DNA from: Escherichia coli
GTDB taxonomy: Bacteria > Pseudomonadota > Gammaproteobacteria > Enterobacterales > Enterobacteriaceae
DNA: 64,000 bases
Assembly: GCF_016903815.1 (NCBI RefSeq)
Contig: NZ_CP069974.1
Strand: one strand, 5' to 3'
Of the stretch, positions 16,785-64,000 are shown in pieces. Numbering within the stretch: position 1 is the first letter of the stretch; every line of letters begins with the position of its first letter. The position numbers and the translations under genes were made by a program. A model generated the notes under the pieces. The model had not been told where the DNA came from and searched no databases. It saw only the letters and a program-made list of their open reading frames with translations.

Positions 16785-16810
16785 CCTGCTTTCTCCTCTC
16801 TCTGGTTTTC

Positions 16811-19776: not shown

Positions 19777-20048
19777 GGAAGAAAAAGAGAATAATCACAG
19801 GGAAGGTGATGTGATTTCTGACAGGCCATAACCAGAGAAGGCGGGGGAAAAGAACGGGCGCCGCAGGCGCGCGTTCATCCCCGTTCCTGAAGGGAAACGA
19901 CCTTCCTGAAGTCAGGTTGTTCATGCCCGTACAACATCAGCAAGGAGAAAGGGGCTACCGGCGAACCAGCAGCCCCTTTATAAAGGCGCTTCAGTAGTCA
20001 GACCAGCATCAGTCCTGAAAAGGCGGGCCTGCGCCCGCCTCCAGGTTG

Positions 20049-28568: not shown

Positions 28569-28595
28569 GATGTGCCTCCTTCTGTTGATGTTTTC

Positions 28596-29177
28596 AGCCC
28601 CCATCATCTTTTGAGTTTCGGGAGCCGCGGTTTTGACGTTTTGCGGGGACCTGCCTTTTGTTCCCTCCGGTATTCACCATCACCTTTTTGAGAACCTTCG
28701 CCGCATGGGGCATCACTGCCACGGACGGAAACGACTGTCCGGGGGCAGACCGCAAAAGTTTTTGCCTGCTTCTGGGCAAAAAGTTTTGCGGGATGTGCAT
28801 TTCACCCCTGGACTGGCGGAGACGGTTGTGGCTGTCTTTGCCCCCGGCGACAGGGGCTTAAACAGGTGAATGGCACCGGACAGAACAACGGGCAGGGACC
28901 CGCCGCAACGACGTGAAGCGCGGTTTGCGAAACGGCGTTGCCCCTTACATCCCGGCGGTCTTTTGCCGGGATGCCAGGAGCGCAGGCCACGGCGCGACAG
29001 AGGCGGCGCGACCGGAACGGTCGCTGCAAGCCAGGGGTTTTCACGCATCGGACCGTAGCGACAGCCCGAAACCGCGCCAGCGGGTTCGGCGGAGACTGGC
29101 AGGTGCGCCAGCAGCTGCCTGTCGGAGTCGGGCCTGACGACCGGATGCCGCCAGGCAGCCGGGAGCCGAAGGTGCGC
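28596..29177. repeat. GC-rich structured repeat copy 2 (candidate Frpo/ssi-type ssDNA promoter) immediately upstream of ssb
   Basis: Near-identical to 16811-17392; begins ~28 nt upstream of the ssb start codon on the minus strand. Confidence 0.45.
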
Positions 29178-31561: not shown

Positions 31562-31577
31562 GCAGGAAAAAGAAGAA

Positions 31578-34046: not shown

Positions 34047-34284
34047 AATTTAGCCTCTTATGACGTTAATTAATGAAACCGTAAAGACTGTTCGTGCAGT
34101 CTCTGCGGTGTGGATTAAGCAGGTCCCTGACCTGCTTTTTTCATATCTGCGTCTGACGTTCTCCGGTGTTTTCCTCCTTCTGTTCCTGCGTTCTCATTAC
34201 CTGCCAGCCGGATGACTGACAGAACACATAAATGCGTATTGCCGGAGCCTGAAATAAATCCTGATTTTTAAAGAACATCACCCG

Positions 34285-34848
34285 TTGAGTTTCGGGAGCC
34301 GCGGTTTTGACGTTTCGCGGGAACCTGCTGCTGTATACCCTGTGGTATGAACTTCACCCGTTTGAGAACCTTCGCCGCAAGGGGCATCACTGCCACGGCC
34401 TGACGCACCTGTCCTGGGCAGAACGCAAAATTTTTTACCGGGTTTTGGGTAAAAAATTTTGTGGGCTGTTCATTTACCCTGGACAGTCAGTGCGGCAGGT
34501 TGTGGCTGTATCAGCCCCAGGCGACAGGGACTCATACGGGTGTGTGGCACCGGCAGGCAATGAGCAGGGACCCGCCGCAACGACGGAGAGCGCGTGCGCG
34601 AAACGGCGTTGCCCCTTACATCCCGGCGGCCTTTTGCCGGGATGCCGGGAGCGCAGGCCACGGCGCGACAAGGGTGGCGCGACCGGAACGGTCGCTGCAA
34701 GCCCGGGGTTTTCACGCATCGGACCGTAGCGACAGCCCGAAACCGCGCCAGCGGGTTCGGCGGAGACTGGCGGGTGCGCCAGCAGCTGCCTGTCGGAGTC
34801 GGGCCTGACGACCGGATGCCGCCAGGCAGCCGGGAGCCGAAGGTGCGC
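34285..34848. repeat. GC-rich structured repeat copy 3 (diverged 5' part)
   Basis: Homologous to 16825-17392; first ~250 nt heavily substituted, remainder near-identical; abuts intron copy 3. Confidence 0.45.
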
Positions 34849-37233
34849 GTGCGACAGGAAGTCGCTTAACGTATTGTTTTACATTGATAAAACCAGCTAT
34901 CCCATTAGCTGTAGCCTACCGGGACAGGCGTTGCCGGCAACGGCGGGGTCTGAAGCTCCCGGGACAACGAGAGCCGGGCGTCAGCCCGGGTAATGCCCCG
35001 TGAGGGGCTTTACCTTGCTGCAAGCATCATGCGGCAGGAGAGCAAGGCTGGTCAGAAGGGTTAACACATGTGAACTGTTGATAAACACCGTTATCGGCAA
35101 CAGGCCAAAGATGCTGACAGGCCTGAACCAAAAGGTACGGGGTCCGGTTGCTACCTCGCGCACAGGGAGCACATGGGCGCAGAGACCCCCGGTGAAGAGA
35201 CAGAACCCGCCCTGACCCTCTGTATGTTAAGCGGAACCTGGTAAACCCGTATCGCTGCCTCACAGGCAGGTGAACCGCAAGGAACACTGTTAGCGGTGCG
35301 GGCATAGGAGGACGGAAAAAGCGAATGCCCGGCTGTAATAACCGGGATACGGGGCAGGTTCCCCGACGCGAAAGCGGGCAGACTTCCGTCTGGTCTTTAA
35401 TTGCATGAAAAGCTGTAAAGCAGTCAAAAGGATATCAGCGAGATGAATACACACATCAGTGTGTCCACGATACCCCACCCGACAGGCTGGCACACCATAA
35501 ACTGGAAAGCATGCCATGCCCGGGTGCGAAAGCTACAGTTACGGATTGCAAAGGCAACCCGACAGCAACAATGGCGGCAGGTCAGAGAACTACAGCGCAT
35601 CCTCACCCGCTCATTCTCCGGCAAAGCCGTGGCTGTCAGGCGTGTAACTGAAAATACCGGTAAAAGGACACCCGGTATTGACGGAAAAATATGGCACACA
35701 CCGAAGGAGAAATGGGAAGGAATATGCAGCCTGAATCTGTGTGGTTACAGGCCACAGCCACTACGGCGAATACATATCCCAAAATCAAACGGCAAAACGC
35801 GACCGCTGGGCATACCCACAATGAGGGACCGGGCCATGCAGGCACTGTGGCTGCTGGCTCTGGAACCCGTATCCGAGACCACTGCTGACCATAACAGCTA
35901 TGGTTTCAGACCAATGCGCAGCACGCATGACGCCATTGAGTCCATTTTTCTGCGGATGAGCCAGAAAGTATCGCCCAAATGGATACTGGAGGGCGATATT
36001 AAAGGGTGCTTCGATAACATCAGCCATGACTGGCTGCTTTCCCATATTCCGATGGACAGGAGACTGCTTAAAAAATGGTTGAAAGCAGGTTACATGGAAA
36101 GAGGCGTGTTTAACCATACGAACAGCGGGACACCGCAGGAAGGCATCATATCCCCTGTTCTCGCCAACATGGCTCTGGACGGACTGGAGAAGGAACTGAT
36201 GCAAACGTTCAGGAAAAGTGGTTATCACAGTGCAAAGCACCAGGTGAATTATGTGAGATATGCTGATGATTTCATCTGTTCAGGCAGCTCCCGTGAATTG
36301 CTGGAAAATGAGGTCAGACCACTGATTGCAGCTTTCATGCGCGAACGAGGGCTGGAACTGTCGGAAGAAAAAACAGCGATCACACATATAGATAAAGGCT
36401 TCGACTTTTTAGGGCAGAACGTCAGGAAGTACAACGGTAAAATGCTGATTAAACCGTCGAAGAAAAACCTGAAGAACTTCCTCTGTAAAGTCAGAGAAAT
36501 AATTAAACGCAATCCGACGCTCCCGGCATGGAAACTGATAGGCCAGCTAAACCCGGTGATCCGGGGATGGGCTACCTATCACCGACACGTCGTGGCGAAA
36601 GAAACATTTAATTATGTCGACACCCAAATCTGGCGAGCTATATGGCGATGGTGTGTAAGACGGCATCCCCGGAAAGGATTGCGGTGGATCGCCGGACGAT
36701 ACTTCTCCTTTGAAGGCAGGCGCTGGATCTTTAAAGCCATAACCCCGGAAGGGAAAATTCTGACACTCTTCCGGGCAATGGAAACACCGATAAAGCGCCA
36801 TATAAAAATCAAAGGCGAAGCAACACCATACACCCCCGGAATGGAAATCTACTTTGAACGTCGTCTGGATCTAATCTGGAAAGGCAAATCAAAGAAGATG
36901 AAGACAGTAGTTCAACTCTGGAAGAGGCAGGGGAAACACTGTCCGCAGTGCGGACAACTCATAACCAACCAGACCGGATGGAATATACATCACCGGATCA
37001 GGAAAGTTATGGGCGGCAGTGACGAACTGACCAATCTCGAGTTGTTACATCCGAACTGCCACCGACAGTTACACAGCAGGGAAGCCGGTGCTCACCGAAA
37101 GCACTTATAAAGGCTTGAGCGGAGTGCGGGGAAACTCGCACGCTCCGTTCTTAGGGGGCGGCGGCGCAGCAATGTGCCGCTGCTACCCGACCCGGCAGAC
37201 AGAACAACACTGCAGTAGTCAGAATCAGAGCAG
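34849..37233 (+). mobile_element. group II intron copy 3
   Basis: Identical to copies 1 and 2 except a single substitution in the IEP. Confidence 0.75.
35443..37110 (+). CDS. group II intron-encoded RT/maturase/HNH (copy 3, Gly to Glu substitution in RT motif)
   Basis: GTPQEGIISP instead of GTPQGGIISP (gga to gaa); otherwise identical to copies 1 and 2. Confidence 0.9.
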   Translation: MNTHISVSTIPHPTGWHTINWKACHARVRKLQLRIAKATRQQQWRQVRELQRILTRSFSGKAVAVRRVTENTGKRTPGIDGKIWHTPKEKWEGICSLNLCGYRPQPLRRIHIPKSNGKTRPLGIPTMRDRAMQALWLLALEPVSETTADHNSYGFRPMRSTHDAIESIFLRMSQKVSPKWILEGDIKGCFDNISHDWLLSHIPMDRRLLKKWLKAGYMERGVFNHTNSGTPQEGIISPVLANMALDGLEKELMQTFRKSGYHSAKHQVNYVRYADDFICSGSSRELLENEVRPLIAAFMRERGLELSEEKTAITHIDKGFDFLGQNVRKYNGKMLIKPSKKNLKNFLCKVREIIKRNPTLPAWKLIGQLNPVIRGWATYHRHVVAKETFNYVDTQIWRAIWRWCVRRHPRKGLRWIAGRYFSFEGRRWIFKAITPEGKILTLFRAMETPIKRHIKIKGEATPYTPGMEIYFERRLDLIWKGKSKKMKTVVQLWKRQGKHCPQCGQLITNQTGWNIHHRIRKVMGGSDELTNLELLHPNCHRQLHSREAGAHRKHL

Positions 37234-37423
37234 CAGATAAAGGAACAACAACATCAGGAACAGTTCCATAACATAAGAAAGAAACACTCCTGAGTCAGAC
37301 ACATCACAGACGGGAAGGGTAACGGGCGACGCGCCAGCGTGGCCCGCTTCCCTTCCGGCAGGCGTCAGCCTGCCAGGGGTTTTCGCGCGGACTGACAGGC
37401 GGCCTCCACCGCCTGCCCCTGTA

Positions 37424-51370: not shown

Positions 51371-54300
51371 TCAGCGATGTTCAAACCGCGCCACTGGAGT
51401 ATCAGTGATTTCCATCTCTATTTCCCAGAGCGTTTTCATCACACCTTCAAGTGGATCGTCGCTGCTGCGGTAGAAGGTATTGAAAAGGGTTCCATCCGGA
51501 TACCTGAACAGCCTGAGTTCACCAAAGGATTCAGCACTGACCATAAGCGAAAACTCCTGTTCGGAATTGAGGACAAGGTAAATAAGACAGTTATTGATCC
51601 TGAAGGGCAGAGAGCGGCTACCCCTGGCCGATACATCAACATGTATGCTAAACGCGTCATGCCTTTCCGGCTGATAGACCAGTTCCCTCAGTTCCTCGCT
51701 GAAGCGGGAACCATAGATCACCAGAATGTAGTTATTCTGATCAGCGGACCGTTGCGCGACTTCCATTAACAGCGTTTCGAGGTTATTGACCTCAATCGTT
51801 AATTTAGCCTGTGACTGCCACAGTACATAATGCAGTCTGCGGAGAATATTTCTGTTCACTTCTGATACCGAAGGGAAATCTCCGTAGTCAGTCTGATTAA
51901 GCTCTCTGGCAACATACTCTTTGGAAACACCAACAGGAATATATATCGCCAGCCAGTTGCGATCACATTCTGAATTTTGAGTAAACGTGAAGTATTTAAG
52001 CAGAACATCTTCAGACAATGCCCCAGGAAGTTCATTTGTAAGACGAGCATCAGTGTTTCTCAGTCGAGCCTGGTCTACTTCAGCAGCAACGATATCTGCC
52101 GTTTTACTACGACTGAATACATCTATGTATTTATCCAGAACATCATTAAAGAACACCACATTCGTTGCATAATCCGCTTCTGAAATGATATAACCTTCAT
52201 AGGGAACTGAAGGGTCTCGTTTCAGTCGTTTAAGAATAGAAATTATTCTGTCTTTACTGGAATAGGAAAACACCCCTCCAGCCAGGGCTTCATTAACACG
52301 CTGTGTAACCTGCTCCGCAGGCCTTGCGAGCTTTATAGCCAGCAAGGCAAACGCCCCGTAGAGACTCCCTAAATCTTCATATTCCCCTGTATACATACGC
52401 CCGGGAATGTAAGGCCTTTCATTATATGAGTTCATAACCTCAATGGTTTCTGATAACCCGCTGTACCAGCTTGTATTCGTATGCAGATTGCAGTGCTCAA
52501 TTCTCAGTATCATGTCAATGATATCGACAGAACGTCTGAATGCAGGCGTCAGCGTGTCATGTGTATCTCTATCTTCATATAATTCAGACATAATGAGATG
52601 ATTCACAAGATCGGCTAAGTCTATATTTTTTTGCGATTCAAAATGAGCAATAAGATACCCTGCCATTAACAACCGCAAATCGGATAAGGCATTTGCAAAC
52701 ATAATGGACAAAGCGGCATCTTTTTTATACTTGCTGCCCCTGAGTAACATATTCCACTGCGGTTCTGTCTCCTTCAGGGACAGATAATCCGGAGTCAGGA
52801 AGAAACTGTGCCAGCGGTACTCTTCCTCCCAGTAACGTGTAAACCGGCTCTGATTAAACCAGAGGCAGAGAACGTCGTGAGCATATCGCACGGAAGAGGC
52901 ATTATCGGCAACCACTGACGGAATAAGAAGCCTGGCGGTATTATGCAGATGATACATCAGGCGGCCAGTAGAATCTTCACTCCCGGGTTTGCCAGTGATC
53001 GTGGTCATACTCCAGCCTTCCCACAGTCCGATATACCCGCGGATAAGGGCCTGGTGAGTCAGCTCCTGGCTGGCCGAGAGGGGGCCCCCCAGTCCCGCTT
53101 TCCACTCGTTTAACACATGCCACACCCTGAAAAGCGAGAGTAAAAACTGTCTGAAATCGGTAAAACACGTGCTCTGTGTTTTTCTGTACACACGCAATGG
53201 AATGAGCATCGATTCACGGAAATATTCGCCTGAATATTCCGTTGATTTTACGGATTCACGAAAAAACTTTCTCAATTCATAATGGAATGAATCGCTGAAA
53301 GTATGGCTAAAACCTGATTCTTTTACTTCATCCAGATAATTTTTATCGACCTCGTAATTGTAACTTCTTTTGATAGAGGTATAGGTATCTGTTAATCGTT
53401 CAATCCCTGTTCTGAAGACGCTAATATTTTTATCGTTAAGCGCATCGTAAGCCTCACCAAAGAAATCAAAAGTAATATCATCCAGATCCCTTTTGTTCTC
53501 AGGGCGCCCTGTTACAATACAACGACGCAATAACCACCGCCACAATCCTGAAACAGGCTTGACATTTCTCGATGACAATAAAGTCAGTTCACCAGAACGA
53601 ACACCAAAGGAGGGCAGAATGATAATTTCCGCATCCTGCCCATCTACCGCCTCTAGCCTTCTCAGTAGGAATAAAAAAGGCCTTATATAAATATCAGTAA
53701 CAACATCACCTTTACTGATATTAGATTTAACATGAAGCATATCGTCTTTCTCAGAAATTGAGTAAGGCAGTATTTTAATATTACCGAGGTAATTTTGACC
53801 TACATGACCCCCCGGGTAACGCAGCCACGCCTGAATATATGCTTTTTGAATGTAGTCATCCACTATCTGAGATAAAAAAAACTTATTCATTAGTCGATCG
53901 CGTTTGCTCTCATCCAGGACATTCAGACTGGAGACGAAGAACCAGATAGACAGAATAATATTGAAAAGCATCCACACAAAAGCTGTTACGGCAAAAGAAG
54001 TATTAAGATATCCGTCACCTATAGATAACGTCATACCGCCCAGCACGACAAATGCAGCCAGTGAAAGACCACTCAGGCCCGCAAACATATATCCGGAATG
54101 AAGTTGATACGCGGACTGAATATGGATCCTTGCTGATTTCTTTTGAAATAAAACACTTATAAGCCCCACAACCAGCGGAAATACAATACCGATTATAGTC
54201 AACTGGCTACCCAGTAAATTAGACATCCAATCTGAAAGCTTGGTAATGCCCTTAAAATGCTGCACAGCGAAAGGTAGCAATACAGGGCGAAAATATTCGA

Positions 54301-54490
54301 CCACGCCAACAGCCCCGAAGGCTGCGGACCATAGAACCAGCATAGCCCGGACGTAATGGGTGGAGCAGGAAACAAGTATTCTCTCCACCGGGTTCCAGCG
54401 AAGTTTTTTGTAATCCCGGTTCGACTTCAGGCTCCGTCGGAGTTCAGCTCTCACCTGCCATGAGACACTTTTCAGAAGTTTTCCAAACAT
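51371..54490 (-). CDS. large membrane-anchored protein of unknown function (1039 aa, four N-terminal TM segments)
   Basis: Uninterrupted 3.1-kb ORF in an AT-rich island; four hydrophobic segments within the first ~200 aa, ~840-aa soluble C-terminal region with no recognisable catalytic motif. Confidence 0.7.
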   Translation of the reverse strand: MFGKLLKSVSWQVRAELRRSLKSNRDYKKLRWNPVERILVSCSTHYVRAMLVLWSAAFGAVGVVEYFRPVLLPFAVQHFKGITKLSDWMSNLLGSQLTIIGIVFPLVVGLISVLFQKKSARIHIQSAYQLHSGYMFAGLSGLSLAAFVVLGGMTLSIGDGYLNTSFAVTAFVWMLFNIILSIWFFVSSLNVLDESKRDRLMNKFFLSQIVDDYIQKAYIQAWLRYPGGHVGQNYLGNIKILPYSISEKDDMLHVKSNISKGDVVTDIYIRPFLFLLRRLEAVDGQDAEIIILPSFGVRSGELTLLSSRNVKPVSGLWRWLLRRCIVTGRPENKRDLDDITFDFFGEAYDALNDKNISVFRTGIERLTDTYTSIKRSYNYEVDKNYLDEVKESGFSHTFSDSFHYELRKFFRESVKSTEYSGEYFRESMLIPLRVYRKTQSTCFTDFRQFLLSLFRVWHVLNEWKAGLGGPLSASQELTHQALIRGYIGLWEGWSMTTITGKPGSEDSTGRLMYHLHNTARLLIPSVVADNASSVRYAHDVLCLWFNQSRFTRYWEEEYRWHSFFLTPDYLSLKETEPQWNMLLRGSKYKKDAALSIMFANALSDLRLLMAGYLIAHFESQKNIDLADLVNHLIMSELYEDRDTHDTLTPAFRRSVDIIDMILRIEHCNLHTNTSWYSGLSETIEVMNSYNERPYIPGRMYTGEYEDLGSLYGAFALLAIKLARPAEQVTQRVNEALAGGVFSYSSKDRIISILKRLKRDPSVPYEGYIISEADYATNVVFFNDVLDKYIDVFSRSKTADIVAAEVDQARLRNTDARLTNELPGALSEDVLLKYFTFTQNSECDRNWLAIYIPVGVSKEYVARELNQTDYGDFPSVSEVNRNILRRLHYVLWQSQAKLTIEVNNLETLLMEVAQRSADQNNYILVIYGSRFSEELRELVYQPERHDAFSIHVDVSARGSRSLPFRINNCLIYLVLNSEQEFSLMVSAESFGELRLFRYPDGTLFNTFYRSSDDPLEGVMKTLWEIEMEITDTPVARFEHR

Positions 54491-54796: not shown

Positions 54797-55027
54797 ATGA
54801 GAACCGTATCGATATTTAAAAATGGCAACAACCGCGCCATCCGTCTGCCTCGTGATCTGGATTTTGAGGGGGTGAGCGAGCTCGAGATCGTCCGGGAAGG
54901 GGACAGCATCATCCTGCGCCCCGTCCGGCCAACCTGGGGATCATTCCTAGAGTACGAAAAAGCCGATCCAGATTTTATGGCGGAGCGCGAGGATGTTGTC
55001 AGCGACGAAGGGCGATTTAACCTGTGA
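54797..55027 (+). CDS. vapB: VapB/MvpA antitoxin (AbrB/SpoVT fold)
   Basis: 76 aa MRTVSIFKNGNNRAIRLPRDLDFEGVSELEIVREGDSIILRPV... matches VapB/MvpA-type antitoxins. Confidence 0.85.
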   Translation: MRTVSIFKNGNNRAIRLPRDLDFEGVSELEIVREGDSIILRPVRPTWGSFLEYEKADPDFMAEREDVVSDEGRFNL

Positions 55028-55440
55028 ACAAGACTTATATGCTTGATACCTGTATCTGCTCGTTCATCATGCGTGAACAGCCAGAAGCCGTCCTGAAGCG
55101 TCTGGAGCAGGCGGTGCTACGCGGCCACCGTATAGTGGTCTCGGCCATCACCTACTCTGAAATGCGCTTCGGGGCTACCGGCCCAAAGGCCTCACCACGT
55201 CACGTCCAACTGGTCGATGAATTCTGCGCCCGCCTCGATGCCATCCTGCCCTGGGATCGCGCCGCAGTAGACGCCACCACGAAGATTAAAGTGGCACTGC
55301 GGCTGGCCGGGACGCCGATCGGCCCGAACGACACGGCGATTGCCGGGCACGCCATCGCCGCCGGGGCGATACTGGTAACGAATAATACAAGAGAATTTGA
55401 GCGAGTGCCTGACCTGGTGCTGGAAGACTGGGTGAAGTAA
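55024..55440 (+). CDS. vapC: VapC/MvpT PIN-domain toxin (start GTG 55024 or ATG 55039)
   Basis: MLDTCICSFIMRE...VVSAITYSEMRFG...LVTNNTREFERVPDLVLEDW with PIN acidic residues; overlaps vapB stop. Confidence 0.85.
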   Translation: MNKTYMLDTCICSFIMREQPEAVLKRLEQAVLRGHRIVVSAITYSEMRFGATGPKASPRHVQLVDEFCARLDAILPWDRAAVDATTKIKVALRLAGTPIGPNDTAIAGHAIAAGAILVTNNTREFERVPDLVLEDWVK

Positions 55441-55601: not shown

Positions 55602-57740
55602 TCAAGCGATACGGGCAACCGAGCTCTGGTTTGCTGCCGGTGGCAGGGCGATGAGCTTGTCACATTCCATAATCACGTACTCCGGGATGAGATCGAATCT
55701 GGACGGATCTAGTTGACAGATGAACTCATTTTCAATGTGGTACGTTTCGTTAACGAATTTTCGTATTACCGGATGGTCCTGATCCAGTTCCAGTAAACGG
55801 AATACCTGCAGTTTTTCATAGCCGTTACGACAGCGACGGTACAGGTTTTTTATTTCATCTGGGCTGCTGACGAGAGCCTGAAGTCGCGGGTAATCAAAAC
55901 TGTCCACATACTCCCGGATATCCCGCAAGGCCTGCTGAATTTTCTCAGGAGCCATTTTGGGATAGCCCGAGCCCGCAGCGGCAGGCTCGCGATAATCCAG
56001 CGGGGCGACGCGTCGATGGAATAGATTGGATAGAAGCTGATAAGCATCACCACGTTCGTCAACGATTTCAAAGTAGCGACGAAGATAGATGAGCTTAATG
56101 ATCTCCTCACAGTCTGCTGACGCGGTGATGGATTTGCAGATCTGCATGAATGTCATGATATCGCCGTCGTTAACAGGTAATTCTTCTATGACTCCAGCAG
56201 ACAGGCGCAGGCAGGAGGCGGTCACCTGATTACTGAACAACCTTCTGACTGACTTCAGCGTGTCAATCACAGGCTCCACGTCATGCGTCAGCATAAGTAC
56301 AGTCCGGTTCTTCAGGCATTCACCACTTGCACGTCTGAACAGCATTTCAAGAATGGCAAACTTCTTGTTTTTATCAAAAGAAGATATGGGATCATCAAGG
56401 ATAATCAGTCCCGGGTTTTTTGACAGGCATTCATACATGAATAACACAATCGCAAAGGCGTTCCGTTCTCCATAGCTGAGATGCTGGCTACCGCCGCTGA
56501 CGTACCCGTCAAAATCTATGTGTCGTAGCCTGAGTTTTCTCTGCTCTCCCTCGCCGGCTATATCCACCCTGTATTTATAGCCTGCATAAGTGAGGAAATT
56601 ATTGATGTTTGTTTTGTGCTGTGCGATCAGCCGGATCATGCTGTCCCGGTGCCGGTTAATTTTTCCCTGCAGCGGTCCGGCAAGGTTTATCAGGTCCATA
56701 AGGGCCGCGTTCAGTCTGTCGGTGATCCCCTGCATGAGTTCGGATTGCAGATCAGGGAAGAACTGCAGGTCAATCAACCTGGCAGTGAGCACCTCCCGAA
56801 CGTTCTGCTGTTCCTGCAGGCTGAAAACATTCAGGCCTCTCAGCGCAGTGAGTTTCTCTGTCAGCGTATCGGTCTGGCGTTTCAACGCCACTAGGTACTC
56901 GATATGTTCGGCTTCCGGACCGTTCTGAAGCATAGTAATGGCCAGAAGGCGTTCTCTGGCGCTCTCCGTCAGGTAATTACCGAGGTTTTCCACCAGTCTG
57001 ATGATAGCGGTCAGGTTTTTAATGGTGGATTTATCGTATTCCTCTCTGACTTGGCGAATTTGTGCTTCCTTTCCCGTGATATCACCGGTACAGAACGGAC
57101 AGCAGCCATCCGAAAGGGGCGAAAACTCGAGTCCCTTTGTCTGCCAGTCAATCCATTCCACGCGGCGTTCACTGCGGATGTAGGGTTGATAGTTCTCAAG
57201 ACCAGCCGGAATGTGGTGTATTTTATTTCCGCCTGACAGACCTCTCATGCCGGTTGAAGAACGTGAAATCCCGGAACTGGTTGATTTGAAAGCATTACTG
57301 AGTTCCTGTAGATGGTCTATCAGAGAGTTCAGCTCAGTGTGATCCGTGAAAACAGCCCGGATCTTTTGCGTCATTTCTTCTATTTCACGCTCTCTTTCCG
57401 CATGGGCTTGATTGCGGATAAGAATATTAAAGCTGTCACTGATGAGCTCGTCCGGTTGGAACGTAAACTGACTGACGTACTCCTCGTTGAAGCACATCAC
57501 GTCCCCAATCCCGTCAGCACCGATGACAATGGGCCCGGTGCTATCGGGGTTTTCTCCGCGCAGCCGGAAGGGCATCAGTGCCTGTAGTCCCTGAATGTCG
57601 TCCCGCGCCGCACAGCTTATGGCCCGTGACAGCGTACTTTTTCCAGTACCATTTGGCGCAAACTTAATGTTCAGTTTATCGGCAGTGAGGGTGATATGTG
57701 CTCGTACGATGTTATTGCAGTGGCGTATTTCAATGTCCAT
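55602..57740 (-). CDS. RloC/Rad50-like ABC ATPase with CxxC hook insert (candidate anticodon nuclease)
   Basis: Walker A APNGTGKST at the N-terminus, long coiled-coil-like insert with CCPFCTGD (CxxC), signature-like LSYGER, Walker B LIILDDP, C-terminal LRRYFEI...H region reminiscent of PrrC/RloC. Confidence 0.45.
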   Translation of the reverse strand: MDIEIRHCNNIVRAHITLTADKLNIKFAPNGTGKSTLSRAISCAARDDIQGLQALMPFRLRGENPDSTGPIVIGADGIGDVMCFNEEYVSQFTFQPDELISDSFNILIRNQAHAEREREIEEMTQKIRAVFTDHTELNSLIDHLQELSNAFKSTSSGISRSSTGMRGLSGGNKIHHIPAGLENYQPYIRSERRVEWIDWQTKGLEFSPLSDGCCPFCTGDITGKEAQIRQVREEYDKSTIKNLTAIIRLVENLGNYLTESARERLLAITMLQNGPEAEHIEYLVALKRQTDTLTEKLTALRGLNVFSLQEQQNVREVLTARLIDLQFFPDLQSELMQGITDRLNAALMDLINLAGPLQGKINRHRDSMIRLIAQHKTNINNFLTYAGYKYRVDIAGEGEQRKLRLRHIDFDGYVSGGSQHLSYGERNAFAIVLFMYECLSKNPGLIILDDPISSFDKNKKFAILEMLFRRASGECLKNRTVLMLTHDVEPVIDTLKSVRRLFSNQVTASCLRLSAGVIEELPVNDGDIMTFMQICKSITASADCEEIIKLIYLRRYFEIVDERGDAYQLLSNLFHRRVAPLDYREPAAAGSGYPKMAPEKIQQALRDIREYVDSFDYPRLQALVSSPDEIKNLYRRCRNGYEKLQVFRLLELDQDHPVIRKFVNETYHIENEFICQLDPSRFDLIPEYVIMECDKLIALPPAANQSSVARIA

Positions 57741-57887
57741 TTATCTGTCCTTTGCCAGTTATTCCGGGGGGATTCATATCCTGCCGCAAAATGTGCCCGC
57801 ATGCTGTGATGCAGATACATAATACATTTCGTTTATACCATTGCTTACACCTCTCCGAGATGTTCATATCAGAAACAAAGATTAGGT

Positions 57888-58020
57888 CGATCCGACTTTT
57901 ACTTTTTTCGGATCTCTGGAGAGGGGAAGAAGGATTTGTGCTGATGATGCAATACTAATGATATATTTTGAACTTAATTGCATTATTGCTTATCTGGCAT
58001 TAATAACTGAAATACTTTGC
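57888..58020 (+). repeat. island repeat R copy 3
   Basis: GATCCGActtttacttttttCGGATC hairpin, CTGGAGAGGGGAAGAAGG tract, mini-ORF ATGATGCAATACTAA, ATTATTGCTTATCTGGCA...GCATAATTA. Confidence 0.6.
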
Positions 58021-58204
58021 ATAATTATCAATGAAAGAACGAGGCTCATATTTCCCATGTAAATTATATGCCCTTGCAGAGAGCGAGACGGTAGTGAACT
58101 TGCGGCACTAATAATAAACTGTACCGACTCTTCCCGGGCACTGGAATGTTCAGATGTACGACAGAGCCCCGCGCCTTTTGCAATAAATAATTAAAGGACT
58201 GAAC

Positions 58205-59200
58205 ATGGCGACCACAGTAATAGCTGCCTTTAACGAATTTATGAAAGATACCGTGAATCTCAAAAAGGCAGATACCGATGACGCGCGTGCAAGTCGCGAC
58301 TGGCTTATCGGTAAGATGAATGATTTTGAGAAGGACGATAAATTTCCGGTGAGTTTTCCAGCGATCCATATTGCCTTTGGCTCCTTTGCCAGAAGAACCA
58401 AAATCCGTCCGCTTGATGATATCGATCTGATGTTTGGCTTAACCGGGCAAGGTGCCACCTATACCATCCTGAGTGACCGGATAACTGTAACCTCCTCCGG
58501 AGAGGGGTCACGTCTGCACAGTTACCGCCATTCCGGAGCTGACACCGTCTGCTCCGTCAGAATTCTGAATGCCTTTAAAAACCGCCTGCAGGACATTGCC
58601 CAGTACGCCCAGGCTGATATCAGGCGTAACCAGGAAGCTGTCACGCTGAAACTGGTCAGCAAGGACTGGAATTTTGACATCGTCCCCTGCTTTATTACCA
58701 GCGAAGATGCCTTTGGACGGACTTACTACCTGATCCCCGATGGCAACGGCCACTGGAAGTTTACCGACCCCCGTAAAGACAGGGACAGAGTCACTACTAT
58801 CAATGTGCAGAATAACGGCAATGTGCTCAATGTCATCAGAGCAGTCAAATACTGGCAGCGGCGACCGACGATGCCATCCATGAGTTCCTACCTGCTGGAA
58901 ACGCTGATTCTGGACTATTACGCTGGCAGGACATCCTGCTCATCGTTTGTTGACATGGAGCTGGAAGCGCTTTTCCGCCACCTTGGTCAATCCGTGCGGT
59001 ACTCTGTCAACGATCCCAAAGGCATACAGGGTGATATCAACTCACTTTCAGCCGAGGCACGTAAGGCGATATCGGACAGATGTTATCTCGATGCGCAAAA
59101 GGTATCGGAGGCGAGATGGTTTGAAAATAATAAAGAGTATGAAAAATCCATCAATAAATGGCGCGATGTGTTCGGGCCATTCTTTCCTGTTTACGGGTGA
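58205..59200 (+). CDS. CD-NTase/SMODS-like nucleotidyltransferase (CBASS-type cyclase candidate)
   Basis: GS-x11-DID nucleotidyltransferase motif FGSFARRTKIRPLDDIDLMF and downstream third Asp KDWNFDIVPCF; 331 aa. Confidence 0.6.
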   Translation: MATTVIAAFNEFMKDTVNLKKADTDDARASRDWLIGKMNDFEKDDKFPVSFPAIHIAFGSFARRTKIRPLDDIDLMFGLTGQGATYTILSDRITVTSSGEGSRLHSYRHSGADTVCSVRILNAFKNRLQDIAQYAQADIRRNQEAVTLKLVSKDWNFDIVPCFITSEDAFGRTYYLIPDGNGHWKFTDPRKDRDRVTTINVQNNGNVLNVIRAVKYWQRRPTMPSMSSYLLETLILDYYAGRTSCSSFVDMELEALFRHLGQSVRYSVNDPKGIQGDINSLSAEARKAISDRCYLDAQKVSEARWFENNKEYEKSINKWRDVFGPFFPVYG

Positions 59201-59203
59201 ATC

Positions 59204-60136
59204 ATGAATGCCATTTACACAAACCAGTCGACCAGAGAAAACATGGATTTACTGTATGCGCAGGCCCGTGTCTACGACAGGGTAAAAAACTGGAACAGAC
59301 TGAATTTTCTCTTCAGCATCATCGTACCGCTCCTGCTTTCTTTCGTTACCGTATACAACCGGAGCCGGGAATTTGTCGATTCAGAGTTGTTGTCTTCGCT
59401 GTTGGGGTTATATGGACTCCTGGTGCTTACCTTTAACATTGTTATCAGTGGACACATCTCGGCTCTGCGCAGGAAGGCAGCCTCAATCCAGGAAATGTAC
59501 GACTGCCGGGTACTTGGCATCCGGCGTAATGAACTGAAGGTGGAGGAGATCCCACGGGATGACATCATCCGGGAAGCTGCATATTTTAGAGACAGCCCGG
59601 AAAAAGCACGAAAGCGATTTGGCGAAGAGGGGTGGTACGTCAGTAAGGTGTATGACGCGCCGCAGGCCGTAATGGCGCTCCTTTGCCACGGAAAAAATCT
59701 CGGCTGGGACAAATCGCTCAGGGAGGTTCTGCACGTATTTTATCTTTCCGCTTTTATTGTCTCGCCTGTCGCGATGCTTGTTTACGGCATCGTCATGAAA
59801 TCCGGGCTGAATGAGATCCTCTTCTATGTGGTGTTCACACTGCCGGTCATCCGCTATTTCTTGCTTCAGTTTCTGGATAATCGCAGCAGTATGAAAAGAA
59901 GCGAGAAGCTGAAAAAGTACGTTGAGAAGGAATTATCCGGCATAAGGGTGTCCGGAAGGGCAGAAGAAGAGCAACTGGCTTATACGCTCCGGAATATCCA
60001 AGATGAGATGTTTACCTACCGGGCCTCATGTCCGCCCGTACCCAACGGTATTCAGCTGATAATGAAGCCCAAAAATGAACGAATTTATGTTGATTACTTT
60101 GAAACAAATCTGAAGGAGCTGCACCTTCAGAAGTAA
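59204..60136 (+). CDS. 4-TM effector-like membrane protein (2TM-loop-2TM) coupled to the nucleotidyltransferase
   Basis: Starts 4 bp after the NTase stop; hydrophobic segments around residues 30-50, 60-85, 198-222 and 228-248. Confidence 0.55.
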   Translation: MNAIYTNQSTRENMDLLYAQARVYDRVKNWNRLNFLFSIIVPLLLSFVTVYNRSREFVDSELLSSLLGLYGLLVLTFNIVISGHISALRRKAASIQEMYDCRVLGIRRNELKVEEIPRDDIIREAAYFRDSPEKARKRFGEEGWYVSKVYDAPQAVMALLCHGKNLGWDKSLREVLHVFYLSAFIVSPVAMLVYGIVMKSGLNEILFYVVFTLPVIRYFLLQFLDNRSSMKRSEKLKKYVEKELSGIRVSGRAEEEQLAYTLRNIQDEMFTYRASCPPVPNGIQLIMKPKNERIYVDYFETNLKELHLQK

Positions 60137-60272
60137 TCCCTCCTTAGCTCCGGTGTAGGATTTACGTATGCCGGAGCACATCCGATAAACAATTCTTGGT
60201 TGCCTGAGTGTCAGCGTAAACCCATAGTCACCTTCGCCTCAGACGGTTAGTAACACAGGTAATGACTCCAAC

Positions 60273-60776
60273 TTACTGATAGTGTTTTATGTTCAGATAA
60301 TGCCCGATGACTTTGTCATGCAGCTCCACCGATTTTGAGAACGACAGCGACTTCCGTCCCAGCCGTGCCAGGTGCTGCCTCAGATTCAGGTTATGCCGCT
60401 CAATTCGCTGAGTGTAACGCTTGCTGATTACGTGCAGCTTTCCTTTCAGGCGGGATTCATACAGCGGCCAGCCATCCGTCATCCATATCACCACGTCAAA
60501 GGGTGACAGCAGGCTCATAAGACGCCCCAGCGTCGCCATAGTGCGTTCACCGAATACGTGCGCAACAACCGTCTTCCGGAGCCTGTCATACGCGTAAAAC
60601 AGCCAGCGCTGGCGCGATTTAGCCCCGACGTATCCCCACTGTTCGTCCATTTCCGCGCAGACGATGACGTCACTGCCCGGCTGTATGCGCGAGGTTACCG
60701 ACTGCAGCCTGAGTTTTTTAAGTGACGTAAAATCGTGTTGAGGCCAACGCCCATAATGCGGGCTGTTGCCCGGCAT
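60273..60776 (-). CDS. insB: IS1 InsB
   Basis: 167 aa matching IS1 InsB. Confidence 0.9.
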
Positions 60777-60970
60777 CCAACGCCATTCATGGCCATATCA
60801 ATGATTTTCTGGTGCGTACCGGGTTGAGAAGCGGTGTAAGTGAACTGCAGTTGCCATGTTTTACGGCAGTGAGAGCAGAGATAGCGCTGATGTCCGGCAG
60901 TGCTTTTGCCGTTACGCACCACCCCGTCAGTAGCTGAACAGGAGGGACAGCTGATAGAAACAGAAGCCAC
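60695..60970 (-). CDS. insA: IS1 InsA
   Basis: 91 aa [43 protein letters not shown]... matches IS1 InsA. Confidence 0.9.
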
Positions 60971-61183
60971 AGGAGCACCTCAAAAACACCATCATACACT
61001 AAATCAGTAAGTTGGCAGCATCACCGGCATTCAAAATCATTATGGCCGCGATCTATTTCTGGCTGTTCTCTATCACTTTTGGCGGCATCGTCGCTCATGG
61101 GTAAGGGGAGTATATTAGCCATTTGGAACCCCACGGTCTCTTGCGGGTTTAATTAAGAACCCGCAAGAAAAACACGAATTGGG

Positions 61184-64000
61184 CTATATTTTTCCGCCTA
61201 CGCCTTTAAACTTCTCAATAAACGAGACGATTTTCTGGAAAACTGCCTGTTTTTTCGTTTTATATTGCGGGTTTAACGGACTAAGTTTTGGTAATGTCTC
61301 GTTTAATTCTGTGCCATTTTCGGTGGCGTATTCGCGTTTTAAAGACGTGCGAATATAGCGTTTCGCCGCCTCTTCATTGAGATTTTCTTCTTTAATCAAC
61401 GCTTCTGCTTCACGTAGCTGTTCGTGTTGAGCAAAGGTAAAGAACGCGTCAATGATGCTGGCTTTGTCTGGTAAATCATCCAGGTTCGTTTGCTGAATAA
61501 AATCGACCACCAGGCCCTCTTTCGCCCGGTTCCCCAGGCTTGAACGAATTAAGCGTTTGACCTCTTCGATCATTTCGCCCTTGCCTTTATTTTGTCTGTT
61601 ATGTTCGAAAATCAGTCCAAGGATATAATCCAGGTTTATTTCCTGAGACTTCAGCAAATCGACCTCAAAAACCACGTCATCCCAGTCAGTGGTTGATTTC
61701 TCTTTTTTCTCAGCTTCTTTCTCACGGCGCTGCCAGTCGCGAATATCGTTATAGGCAGAACGATAATCCTGAATCTTGCGATCAGCAGGGAGACGAATTG
61801 TTTGCAATTCAGCGAGCTTTTCATCATCCACATAATGTTCTGCTTTGAATTTTTCTACTGCAACAGGATCGCTAAGATCGATTTGTTGCAGGGCTTTCAG
61901 CGTGGCAAATTCATCATAGTTTTGCAGGATGTTCTCGGTACGCAGGTATTCACCAAACAGTTTTACGAAGTCTTTCTTCTCTTTTTCACTTTCAATACTG
62001 GCAGGGTCAGGGAACCGTTGTTCCAGTTCTGCAACTACTGCCATAAAGCCGCGCTTAGCTTCACCAGTAGCAGCATCAGTAAAGCCTTCCATATACTCTG
62101 CATAACTCTTTTCTAACACTACATTTTTGGTGTTTTTGTCACCAAACAGCGTTATGGCATCAATAGTTGAGCGTTCCAGATCCCGGAAAGTGACGATATT
62201 ACCGAAGGTTTTAGTGGCGTCATAAATGCGGTTGGTGCGGGAAAATGCCTGCATCAGGCCGTGAAAACGTAAGTTTTTATCGACGAATAGCGTGTTCAAT
62301 GTTGGAGCATCGAAGCCGGTTAAGAACATCCCCACGACAATTAGCAGATCGATATCCTGATTTTTAACCCGCTGGGCTAAATCACGATAGTAGTTCTGAA
62401 AACCGTTACTGTCGGTGCTAAAGTTAGTTTTAAAATGGCTGTTATATTCACGAATTGCAGCGTCCAGAAACTCTTTAGCACTGCTGTCCATTGCGCTGGT
62501 ATCAAAAGTTTCATCGGAAATCTCACCAATGGCATTTTGTTCTTCATTGGCGGCAAAGGAGAAGATTGTCGCAATACGCAGCGGTTTATAGGTAGCCGAT
62601 TTATTAGCGGCTTCTTCTTGTAACCGTTTAAACGTCGCATAATAGGCTTTCGCGGCATCCACGCTGCTCACTGCCAACATAGCATTAAAACCTTTTGAGC
62701 CAGGGAAGGTACGGTGAGTTTTCTGGCGGAAATTATTCAGAATATATTGCGTAATTTCCTGTATACGCATGGGATGAAGAAACGCCTGCTGATTTTCAGC
62801 CGCACTCAGTTTTTTCTCGTCGGTTTCTGTCTCTAAAGACTTAAACTGTGGCCGCACATCGTTGTAGTCCACCTTGAATTTAAGCACTTTTTCATCTCGA
62901 ATCGCATCGGTAATAACATATGAATGCAATTCACGACCAAATACGCTGGCGGTTGTTTCTGAGCCTAAGGCGTTTTCCGGGAAAATAGGGGTACCGGTAA
63001 AACCAAACTGATAATAGCGTTTGAATTTCTTCTTCAGGTTTTTCTGTGCTTCTCCAAACTGGCTGCGGTGGCATTCATCAAATATAAACACCACTTGCTG
63101 ATTGTATACAGGCAGGTCGCTTTCTGCTTTCATCAGGTTATTGAGTTTCTGAATAGTGGTGACGATAATTTTGTTATCATCCTTATCCAGATTTCGTTTA
63201 AGACCTGCGGTATTTTCCGATCCATTGACACTGTCTGGCGAAAAACGCTGATATTCCTTCATGGTCTGGTAATCGAGGTCTTTCCTGTCGACCACAAAGA
63301 AGACTTTATCAATAAAGTCCAGTTCTGTTGCCAGACGCGCGGCTTTAAAGCTGGTCAGGGTTTTACCAGAACCGGTAGTGTGCCAGATAAAGCCACCACT
63401 TTCGGGGGTAGACCAGTTTTTCGCTTTATAGGAGCTGTTGATTTTCCATAAGATACGCTCAGTGGCGGCAATCTGGTACGGTCGCATCACCAGTAGCGTC
63501 TGGCTACTGTCAAAAACGCTGTAGTTCACCAGAACATTCAGCAGAGTATGTTTCTGGAAAAAGGTAGCGGTAAAGTCTTTGAGGTCTTTAATCAGCGTGT
63601 TGTCTGATTTTGCCCAATTCATGGTGAAGTCAAAACTGTTTTTATCGCGCTTTGTCGTGTTGGCAAAATAATGGGTATCGGTGCCGTTAGAAATGACAAA
63701 CAGTTGCAGATACTTAAACAGGGAATTTTCGCTGTTAAAACTCTCTTTACTGTAACGATGTATCTGGTTGAAAGCCTCACGAATCGCCACCCCGCGTTTT
63801 TTTAGTTCGATTTGCACCAGCGGTAAACCATTAACCAGGATCGTGACGTCATAACGGTTAGCATGAGAACCCGTCTGTTCAAACTGCTGGATAATCTGCA
63901 CCTTATTGCGCATGAGATTCTTTTTATCTATCAAATAGATGTTCTCAAGACGCTCGTCATCAAAAATAAAGTCGCAAATATAGTCGATATGGATTTTACG
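61184..64000 (-). CDS. hsdR: type I restriction enzyme R subunit HsdR, C-terminal ~916 aa (5' end outside window)
   Basis: Helicase motifs [22 protein letters not shown] (DEAH-like), QAFSRTNR; ORF continues past the window end. Confidence 0.85.

What the first reader, a model, noticed from the sequence alone, without database searches (positions are those of the whole stretch)
58205..60136. Minimal CBASS-like pair: nucleotidyltransferase plus 4-TM effector
A 331-aa protein with the GS...DxD nucleotidyltransferase active site and a third Asp is followed 4 bp later by a 310-aa protein with a 2TM-loop-2TM arrangement. No cap genes (E1/E2/JAB or HORMA/TRIP13) are present. This matches a type I CBASS organisation but could equally be a different NTase-membrane toxin pairing.
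Basis: partly seen in the sequence, partly recalled or inferred. Interest (0 to 1): 0.55.

Follow-up and report, generated by a model that had tools for sequence, protein, structure and literature searches.

The report
Known plasmid-borne type I CBASS pair
This two-gene unit on an E. coli IncF plasmid is an ordinary, already catalogued anti-phage system (type I CBASS: a cGAS-like signal-making enzyme plus a four-helix membrane "suicide" protein), about 99% identical to the pair carried by the strain from which a phage-tested operon was taken.

Summary
Two intact ORFs lie on the + strand, 58205-59200 (331 aa) and 59204-60136 (310 aa), 3 nt apart. The first has G59-S60, D72xD74 and D158. The second has four hydrophobic helices arranged 2+2.

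The interpretation also holds. The first protein matches a PADLOC CBASS cyclase model over its full length (E 4e-152), and its predicted fold is closest to clade-D/C CD-NTases (P. aeruginosa CdnD, E 4e-16). The second matches the PADLOC 4TM effector (E 1e-165) and Pfam S_4TM (E 9e-47). No Cap2/Cap3, HORMA or TRIP13 gene lies nearby. The pair recurs at about 53% identity in three other bacterial groups (a Clostridium, an Ignavibacteriales and an Alteromonadaceae genome) with unrelated flanks, so it is a minimal type I CBASS.

It is not new. DNA matching the pair occurs in 672 of 5,426 complete E. coli genomes, almost always on plasmids, and RefSeq already names both genes. The proteins are 330/331 and 307/310 identical to the pair on plasmid pSLK172-2. 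E. coli SLK172 is the source strain of the "EcCdnD12-4TM" operon, which restricted phages of five families at least 10,000-fold and is triggered by a phage prohead-protease scaffold domain.

Still unknown are the nucleotide signal and how the S-4TM protein senses it and kills; no solved structure resembles it. Interest is low.

The parts
57890..58204 (+). Conserved AT-rich leader of about 315 bp that travels with the gene pair. It presumably holds the promoter, and an AAGGA ribosome-binding site lies 7 nt before the ATG. Its left edge coincides with a GATCCG...CGGATC inverted repeat.
   Evidence: A three-plasmid alignment (window, pSLK172-2, p504239_155) becomes near-identical from about window 57890 onward, while the sequence to the left is unrelated. 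GC is about 0.40 here. The sigma-70 consensus scan found no more sites than chance, so the promoter is not located. There is no Rfam match.
58205..59200 (+). CD-NTase (SMODS) oligonucleotide cyclase of 331 aa, closest to clade D. It is identical to RefSeq WP_000246636 and 330/331 identical to the cyclase of E. coli SLK172 plasmid pSLK172-2.
   Evidence: PADLOC Cyclase PDLC00802, E 4e-152, residues 1-331. Pfam SMODS gives two partial hits. G59, S60, D72, D74 and D158 are invariant. The AF2 model has pLDDT 90.3 and its best Foldseek match is PaCdnD at E 4e-16, TM 0.69-0.79.
59204..60136 (+). S-4TM effector of 310 aa. Predicted topology is N-in/C-in, with TM1-2 at about 34-83 and TM3-4 at about 176-222, a cytoplasmic helical domain, and a conserved cytoplasmic polar set (Y24, K28, Q96, D100, W144, Y145, Q266, R273). 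It is identical to WP_000991832.
   Evidence: PADLOC Effector 4TM PDLC00717, E 1e-165. Pfam S_4TM PF18159, E 8.8e-47, residues 2-293. Hydropathy. Invariant residues from a 60-sequence alignment. AF2 model with pLDDT 93 and pTM 0.90, all-helical. 307/310 identical to the pSLK172-2 protein.
60137..60248 (+). Conserved 3' tail of the mobile two-gene module. It contains hairpins at about 60110-60130 and 60148-60176 but no T-run on the + strand.
   Evidence: Homology among the three plasmids ends at about 60248 for pSLK172-2 and at 60257 for p504239_155, where IS1 begins in the window.

Best explanation
This is a type I (two-gene) CBASS anti-phage abortive-infection module carried on a conjugative IncFIA/FIB/FII plasmid of E. 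coli.

Gene 1 is a cGAS/DncV-like nucleotidyltransferase closest to clade D. It very probably belongs to the 'CdnD12' group of Richmond-Buccola et al.

Gene 2 is an S-4TM inner-membrane effector.

Proposed mechanism, with shown and inferred steps marked:

(1) In uninfected cells the cyclase is idle. This is inferred.

(2) Late in infection a phage virion-assembly cue switches it on. [quoted passage not shown] This was reported for that operon and not tested here.

(3) The enzyme uses G59-S60, D72/D74 and D158 to make a cyclic oligonucleotide. The active-site residues are shown by sequence. The product is unknown; a cyclic trinucleotide is my guess, because several characterised clade-D enzymes make one.

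(4) The signal binds the cytoplasmic helical domain of the S-4TM protein. The family-invariant polar residues (Y24, K28, Q96, D100, W144, Y145, Q266, R273) all lie outside the membrane helices. Binding there is inferred.

(5) The four long helices then rearrange or oligomerise to breach the inner membrane and kill the cell before phage release. This is inferred from the family's naming and from other CBASS transmembrane effectors.
For: Full-length PADLOC matches to a CBASS cyclase (E 4e-152) and a CBASS 4TM effector (E 1e-165). Pfam SMODS and S_4TM.

The catalytic GS/DxD/D residues are present and invariant across the family.

The predicted cyclase fold (pLDDT 90.3) is closest to PaCdnD, EcCdnC and other CdnD enzymes, then cGAS. 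Solved-structure sequence hits come only from clades D and C.

The pair is conserved with overlapping or abutting genes in Clostridium beijerinckii, an Ignavibacteriales MAG and an Alteromonadaceae genome. Flanks there are unrelated and no Cap2/3, HORMA or TRIP13 domains appear.

No cap genes lie beside the pair in the window.

RefSeq/PGAP names the products 'SMODS domain-containing nucleotidyltransferase' and 'S-4TM family putative pore-forming effector'.

The proteins are 330/331 and 307/310 identical to the pair on pSLK172-2 of E. coli SLK172. The preprint 10.1101/2023.05.21.541620 names that strain as the source of the clade-D operon 'EcCdnD12-4TM'. [quoted passage not shown]

None of the 4 substitutions touches an invariant family position.
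Against: The two NCBIfam CBASS cyclase equivalog models score below their curated cut-offs (115 and 60 bits against 200). The Pfam SMODS hits are weak and split. This cyclase therefore belongs to a subfamily those models cover poorly.

I could not see an accession for EcCdnD12, because the published paper and its tables are not held. The link to the tested operon rests on the strain name, the 4TM architecture and the clade-D affinity.

In that preprint the purified enzyme gave no stimulated product in vitro, so cyclase chemistry is undemonstrated even for the closest relative.

No promoter was located. Native expression from the plasmid is untested.

No solved structure resembles the effector, so steps 4 and 5 are inference.
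Confidence: 0.93

Rival explanations
1. The pair is a nucleotidyltransferase toxin-antitoxin or antibiotic-modifying pair (an MNT/HEPN-type or aminoglycoside NTase) that happens to sit beside an unrelated membrane protein or transporter.
For: The GS...DxD motif is shared by all pol-beta-fold nucleotidyltransferases. The plasmid carries several TA systems (vapBC, ccdAB, hok/mok) and an aminoglycoside-resistance gene elsewhere.
Against: At E<=0.01, NCBIfam returns only the two CBASS cyclase models and no ANT or MNT model. PADLOC returns 31 cyclase models. The predicted fold is closest to CdnD, CdnC and cGAS. The membrane protein is S_4TM over 292 residues and matches no transporter family. The two genes stay together across phyla.
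Confidence: 0.01
2. The genes are a CBASS by descent, but on this plasmid their main role is plasmid-centred rather than host anti-phage defence. They might act in post-segregational or competitor killing, in exclusion of other mobile elements, or as a silent passenger not expressed from its native promoter.
For: 680 of 690 occurrences in complete E. coli genomes are on plasmids. The module sits in the maintenance region next to repE-sopAB-ccdAB and vapBC. It moves as a discrete unit of about 2.36 kb between different plasmid contexts. No clear sigma-70 promoter was found. The published phage tests used synthesised operons cloned in a pBAD vector, not the native plasmid context. In some plasmids the operon is split by IS elements, so it can be lost without obvious cost.
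Against: The near-identical pair belongs to the strain whose operon restricted many phages in a cyclase-dependent way. Both ORFs are intact here, with every invariant residue preserved. Sequence identity of >=99% across hundreds of plasmids argues for maintained function. The neighbours are other defence genes (type I R-M, PDC-S06), as in a defence island. Plasmid enrichment of CBASS is already described as defence cargo.
Confidence: 0.05
3. The pair is an inactivated remnant: a pseudo-system stranded by the IS1-mediated rearrangement immediately downstream.
For: IS1 (60258-61025) abuts the module without a target-site duplication, so a rearrangement occurred there. The sequence to the left of about 57890 also differs between plasmids.
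Against: Both reading frames are full length. They are identical to the RefSeq proteins found in hundreds of plasmids. The 315-bp leader and about 110 bp of 3' tail are retained. IS1 lies 121 bp beyond the stop codon.
Confidence: 0.02

Closest known systems
EcCdnD12-4TM type I CBASS operon of E. coli SLK172 (Richmond-Buccola et al., bioRxiv 10.1101/2023.05.21.541620; published in Cell Host Microbe 2024)
   Same: The architecture is the same: a 331-aa cyclase followed by a 310-aa S-4TM effector. The SLK172 plasmid pSLK172-2 carries a pair 330/331 and 307/310 identical to the window's, with the same leader and 3' tail. Both sit on IncF-type plasmids.
   Different: There are four conservative substitutions: cyclase L19 against I; effector M14 against L, V209 against M, A259 against G. 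The flanking genes differ. I could not confirm by accession that the tested operon is this SLK172 locus.
Pseudomonas aeruginosa ATCC27853 CdnD (PDB 6P82/6P8J/6P8U), a type III CBASS cyclase
   Same: It is the closest solved relative by sequence (E 9e-16) and by predicted fold (Foldseek E 4e-16, TM 0.69-0.79). It has the same GS/DxD/D catalytic core.
   Different: Identity is only about 20-22%. PaCdnD works with HORMA/TRIP13 regulators and a NucC nuclease effector. The window's cyclase has no such partners and uses a membrane effector. It has 84 residues between the DxD motif and the third Asp (D74 to D158), which I take to be longer than in other CD-NTases; that comparison rests on my recollection and was not measured here.
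S-4TM family (Pfam PF18159, 'SMODS-associating 4TM effector domain'; PADLOC '4TM' CBASS effectors)
   Same: Full-length profile match, four TM helices arranged 2+2, and a position immediately downstream of a SMODS gene.
   Different: Nothing sets it apart from the family. The family itself has no solved structure and no demonstrated ligand or pore mechanism.
Other CBASS transmembrane effectors (Cap15 TM-beta-barrel, Cap14 2TM-SAVED, SLATT)
   Same: They share the presumed logic: nucleotide-activated inner-membrane disruption that causes abortive infection. This rests on established knowledge of those families.
   Different: No SAVED, beta-barrel or SLATT domain was detected. The predicted fold is all-helical, with TM helices continuing into a cytoplasmic bundle. 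The ligand-binding module is therefore of a different, uncharacterised kind.

Membership tests
CD-NTase / SMODS (CBASS oligonucleotide cyclase) | Pol-beta nucleotidyltransferase catalytic residues: GS, then [DE]x[DE], then a third acidic residue | tested here: met
   G59-S60, D72-I-D74 and D158 are present and invariant in 32 family members down to 52% identity.
CD-NTase / SMODS (CBASS oligonucleotide cyclase) | Significant match to curated CBASS cyclase or SMODS profiles | tested here: met
   PADLOC PDLC00802, E 4e-152 over residues 1-331, plus 30 other cyclase models. Pfam SMODS at E 6.8e-7 and 1e-3, split. However, NCBIfam CBASS_cyclase_b and CBASS_cyclase_a score 115 and 60 bits, below their 200-bit cut-offs, so it is not a member of those two narrower equivalog groups.
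CD-NTase / SMODS (CBASS oligonucleotide cyclase) | cGAS/DncV-like bilobed fold | tested here: met
   AF2 model with pLDDT 90.3 and pTM 0.87. Foldseek top hits are PaCdnD (E 4e-16, TM 0.69-0.79), EcCdnC, E. cloacae and Salmonella CdnD, DwCdnB and human cGAS.
CD-NTase / SMODS (CBASS oligonucleotide cyclase) | Synthesis of a cyclic di- or oligonucleotide | not testable with these tools
For the SLK172 enzyme the preprint reports no ligand-stimulated product in vitro.
CD-NTase clade D (cluster D12) | Phylogenetic placement within clade D of the Whiteley et al. 2019 classification | tested here: inconclusive
   All solved-structure sequence hits are clade D, plus one clade C. The SLK172 operon is called CdnD12 in the preprint. 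No tree was built and no accession list could be read.
S-4TM effector (PF18159) | Profile match across the domain | tested here: met
   Pfam S_4TM, E 8.8e-47, residues 2-293 against model positions 1-282 of 291. PADLOC 4TM PDLC00717, E 1e-165.
S-4TM effector (PF18159) | Four transmembrane helices in two pairs | tested here: met
   Hydropathy peaks at about 34-52, 62-83, 176-197 and 205-222. AF2 models long helices at 11-55, 60-104, 154-197 and 202-250 with pLDDT 93.
S-4TM effector (PF18159) | Encoded next to a SMODS cyclase gene | tested here: met
   The gap is 3 nt in the window. The same adjacency is seen in three distant taxa.
S-4TM effector (PF18159) | Nucleotide-triggered membrane disruption | not testable with these tools
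   No solved relative and no ligand data exist. This feature is inferred only.
Type I CBASS | Cyclase plus effector only, with no Cap2/Cap3 (E1/E2/JAB), HORMA/TRIP13 or other ancillary genes | tested here: met
   The neighbours are a PDC-S06 AAA ATPase (712 aa, ABC/SMC-like, not TRIP13), vapBC, IS1 and hsdR. The distant loci show no such Pfam families either.
Type I CBASS | Cyclase-dependent protection against phage | not testable with these tools
   Reported for the operon from E. coli SLK172, whose plasmid pair is 99% identical. Not tested for this plasmid.
Aminoglycoside / MNT-type nucleotidyltransferases (considered) | Profile match to ANT or MNT families | tested here: not met
   No such family appears at E<=0.01 in NCBIfam or at E<=10 in Pfam.
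SLATT effectors / membrane transporters (considered) | Profile or fold match to SLATT or transporter families | tested here: not met

The most novel reading that the evidence does not exclude
The evidence leaves open that the S-4TM protein senses its signal through a new kind of cyclic-oligonucleotide receptor. This would be an all-helical cytoplasmic bundle continuous with the TM helices, built around Y24, K28, Q96, D100, W144, Y145, Q266 and R273, and unrelated to SAVED, STING, CARF or the Cap15 barrel. It also leaves open that the CdnD12-type cyclase makes a signal not yet described. If so, this very common plasmid gene pair would be a convenient model for an unsolved CBASS effector class.
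Probability: 0.3. Interest if true: 0.4.

Novelty: already known. Interest (0 to 1): 0.1.

Why it matters
As a discovery it matters little. The gene pair is already annotated by RefSeq and recognised by PADLOC, and a 99%-identical pair sits in the strain whose operon has been phage-tested.

Its practical relevance is epidemiological. About one in eight complete E. coli genomes carries it (672 of 5,426), nearly always on plasmids. PLSDB lists 897 plasmids with it, 682 of them predicted conjugative, in E. coli, Salmonella, Klebsiella and others. This broad-range abortive-infection system therefore travels with resistance plasmids, which bears on phage therapy.

Two questions remain open and are tractable with this pair: which nucleotide the cyclase makes, and how an S-4TM effector reads that signal and kills.

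Tried and rejected
- Literature search for the RefSeq accessions WP_000246636 and WP_000991832 found nothing.
- I tried to read the published Richmond-Buccola 2024 paper and Whiteley 2019, with their supplementary tables, to confirm the EcCdnD12 accession and clade. Neither is held and the preprint has no supplements. The identification therefore rests on the strain name plus 99% identity.
- The 'CdnD12' hit in a second preprint turned out to be 'EcCdnD' with reference superscript 12, which is irrelevant.
- The sigma-70 promoter and terminator scan of 57600-60400 found no more sites than shuffled sequence, so no promoter is assigned.
- The Rfam scan of the same stretch gave one chance-level hit (E 0.96) and was rejected.
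- A search of the phage genome collection for the pair found no match. It is not phage or phage-plasmid cargo in that set.
- The aminoglycoside/MNT NTase reading and the SLATT reading were both rejected on profile evidence.
- The adjacent 712-aa AAA ATPase was considered as a possible TRIP13-like CBASS regulator. I rejected this: it is PADLOC candidate PDC-S06 with ABC/SMC-type ATPase similarity, it is divergently transcribed, and it lies outside the conserved mobile module.
- A first Python comparison failed because locus L002 was not available to scripts. Protein comparison was used instead.
Full report
**Observation.** The first ends in TGA at 59198-59200 and the second starts at ATG 59204, leaving three intergenic bases. 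An AAGGA ribosome-binding site lies 7 nt upstream of the first ATG.

The first protein carries G59-S60, D72-I-D74 and D158, and has no hydrophobic segment. The second has four hydrophobic stretches at about 34-52, 62-83, 176-197 and 205-222, separated by a loop of about 95 residues and followed by a tail of about 85 residues.

**What the two proteins are.** Against PADLOC, protein 1 matches the CBASS 'Cyclase' model PDLC00802 end to end (E 4.3e-152), along with 30 further cyclase models. Protein 2 matches the CBASS 'Effector 4TM' model PDLC00717 end to end (E 1.1e-165) and eight further 4TM models.

Pfam gives SMODS (PF18144) for protein 1, as two partial and rather weak hits. For protein 2 it gives S_4TM (PF18159, E 8.8e-47, residues 2-293).

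NCBIfam returns only its two CBASS cyclase equivalogs for protein 1, both below the curated cut-off (115 and 60 bits against 200). It returns nothing for protein 2. The cyclase therefore belongs to a subfamily those two models do not cover. No aminoglycoside or MNT-type nucleotidyltransferase model and no transporter model matches either protein.

**Closest solved relatives of the cyclase.** By sequence these are P. aeruginosa CdnD (6P82/6P8U, E 9e-16), B. cereus CdnD (9SA5), Enterobacter and Salmonella CdnD, and E. coli CdnC. All are clade D or C.

A homologue search found 2,493 proteins at E<=1e-10, nearly all 330-335 aa long. In an alignment of 32 of them, down to 52% identity, G59, S60, D72, D74 and D158 are invariant.

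AlphaFold2 on that alignment gave a confident model (pLDDT 90.3, pTM 0.87). Its best Foldseek matches are PaCdnD (E 4e-16, TM 0.69-0.79), then EcCdnC, other CdnD enzymes, DwCdnB and human cGAS. The CD-NTase assignment therefore rests on motif, profile and fold together.

**The effector.** It has no sequence relative among solved structures. It belongs to a large family: 1,098 clusters at 50% identity with E<=1e-3, almost all about 300 aa.

In a 60-sequence alignment at 22-38% identity, the invariant residues are Y24, K28, Q96, D100, W144, Y145, Q266 and R273. All lie outside the four hydrophobic segments. By the positive-inside rule (my inference from the sequence) they lie on the cytoplasmic side.

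The AlphaFold2 model is confident (pLDDT 93, pTM 0.90) and entirely helical. Long helices at 11-55, 60-104, 154-197 and 202-250 run from the membrane into a cytoplasmic bundle.

**System type.** No Cap2/Cap3, HORMA or TRIP13 gene is nearby. The neighbours are:
- a divergently transcribed 712-aa ABC/SMC-like ATPase that PADLOC files as candidate PDC-S06 (55602-57740, -);
- vapBC (54797-55440);
- a 1,039-aa orphan protein (51371-54490, -);
- IS1 (60258-61025);
- a type I restriction-modification operon beginning with hsdR.

Loci encoding cyclase homologues of about 53% identity in Clostridium beijerinckii, an Ignavibacteriales MAG and an Alteromonadaceae genome all have an S_4TM gene abutting or overlapping the cyclase gene. 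Their flanks are unrelated and show no cap-gene domains. The two genes form a self-contained unit, which is the definition of a type I CBASS.

**How well known it is.** DNA matching window 57900-60250 is found in 672 of 5,426 complete E. coli genomes. 524 records match at >=99% identity, and 680 of 690 places are on plasmids. RefSeq names the products 'SMODS domain-containing nucleotidyltransferase' (WP_000246636) and 'S-4TM family putative pore-forming effector' (WP_000991832).

In PLSDB the pair occurs on 897 plasmids: 611 Escherichia, 165 Salmonella, 75 Klebsiella and others. 682 of them are predicted conjugative. It is absent from the phage collection.

The window is colinear with an IncFIA/FIB/FII plasmid of E. 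coli strain 222: 100% identity over window 41000-64000 and 99.8% over 923-37075. A recent survey already reports CBASS as enriched on E. coli plasmids.

**Link to a tested operon.** A preprint from the Kranzusch laboratory (10.1101/2023.05.21.541620) screened type I CBASS operons against the BASEL phages. It reports that 'EcCdnD12-4TM' gave >=10,000-fold restriction of phages from five families. It states that the broadly defensive clade-D operon came from E. coli SLK172.

In that study, defence and toxicity required the two catalytic aspartates. The scaffold domain of the Bas13 prohead protease alone triggered CBASS-dependent toxicity. Escape mutations mapped to the prohead protease, capsid and tail fibre. 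The purified enzyme was not stimulated in vitro.

The SLK172 plasmid pSLK172-2 (NZ_CP017633, 34759-36690) carries a SMODS/S-4TM pair. Its proteins are 330/331 and 307/310 identical to the window's. The differences are L19/I in the cyclase and M14/L, V209/M and A259/G in the effector. None falls at an invariant family position.

I could not read the accession table of the published paper. That the tested operon is this locus is therefore a strong inference, not a verified fact.

**Extent of the mobile unit.** An alignment of the window with pSLK172-2 and p504239_155 shows near-identity from about 57890 to about 60248, with unrelated sequence on both sides. The left edge coincides with a GATCCG...CGGATC inverted repeat.

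The unit that moves between plasmids is thus about 2.36 kb: a 315-bp AT-rich leader, the two genes, and about 110 bp of tail. No promoter could be assigned by consensus scanning, and there is no Rfam match.

IS1 sits directly to the right. It has no target-site duplication (AGTAACACA against GGCATTCAA), so a rearrangement joined the module to the end of hsdR.

**Mechanism.** Shown here by sequence and prediction:
- an intact CD-NTase active site;
- a cGAS-like fold;
- a four-helix membrane protein with a conserved cytoplasmic polar cluster;
- tight gene coupling across phyla.

Taken from the preprint on the SLK172 operon:
- broad anti-phage activity;
- dependence on the catalytic aspartates;
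- activation by a late virion-assembly protein.

Inferred:
- The product is a cyclic oligonucleotide. A trinucleotide is my guess, because E. cloacae CdnD and B. cereus CdnD make cyclic trinucleotides.
- The product binds the cytoplasmic bundle of the S-4TM protein.
- Binding drives membrane permeabilisation and abortive infection.

**Verdict.** Its stated refutation conditions were tested and not met. The finding is an already known, already annotated and very common system, and the strain whose operon has been phage-tested carries a 99%-identical pair.

The remaining open questions are the identity of the signal and the structure and mechanism of S-4TM effectors. They concern the whole family and are not peculiar to this locus.

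Noticed in passing
window 51371-54490 (-): A 1,039-aa ORF (WP_023909028, 'hypothetical protein') with N-terminal hydrophobic segments. It has no match in PADLOC, NCBIfam or Pfam, even at E<=10. It sits in the same plasmid island between a DUF3800 gene and vapBC, so it is an orphan candidate defence gene.
   Followed up: partly
window 55602-57740 (-): A 712-aa ABC/SMC-like AAA ATPase transcribed divergently from the CBASS. It matches the PADLOC 'phage defence candidate' PDC-S06 over its full length (E 3e-286), with weaker LmuB, AriA and PrrC-like similarity. It lies outside the conserved CBASS module.
   Followed up: partly
window 60258-61025 (-): A complete 768-bp IS1 lies 121 bp downstream of the effector stop codon. 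The 9-bp flanks differ (AGTAACACA against GGCATTCAA), so there is no target duplication. IS1 marks a rearrangement that joins the CBASS module to the 3' end of hsdR.
   Followed up: yes
window 61184-64000 (-) and beyond: The type I restriction-modification gene hsdR runs off the window end. It is 3,117 nt in the matching plasmid and is followed there by hsdS and hsdM. Together with vapBC, PDC-S06, DUF3800 and the CBASS it forms a defence island beside the IncFIA repE-sopAB-ccdAB region.
   Followed up: partly
window ~16805-19791, ~28590-31577, ~34276-37250: Three copies of an element of about 3 kb, at 96.6-99.1% identity to one another. In the colinear plasmid they correspond to group II introns with ltrA reverse transcriptase/maturase genes, inserted in the F leading region.
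   Followed up: partly
window 57884-57911: An inverted repeat GATCCG(N14)CGGATC lies exactly at the left boundary where the CBASS module becomes identical between otherwise different plasmids. It could be a terminator of the upstream context or a recombination or junction site.
   Followed up: no
other plasmids: NZ_CP072982.1, NZ_OZ547615.1, CP142532.1 (hits H2/H33, H3, H47): In several plasmids the match to the pair is split in two pieces spanning about 0.8-1.3 kb of extra DNA, with IS3-family elements (ISEc52, IS3) annotated under the match in two of the three. These look like natural insertional knock-outs in or beside the operon.
   Followed up: no
window 58205-59200, cyclase residues 75-157: The spacing between the DxD motif (D74) and the third catalytic Asp (D158) is 84 residues, which appears longer than in the CdnD enzymes I recall. 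In the model the segment includes extra strands and a helix (85-128), and confidence dips at residues 61-70 and 131-160. It might be a family-specific surface, but this was not examined.
   Followed up: no
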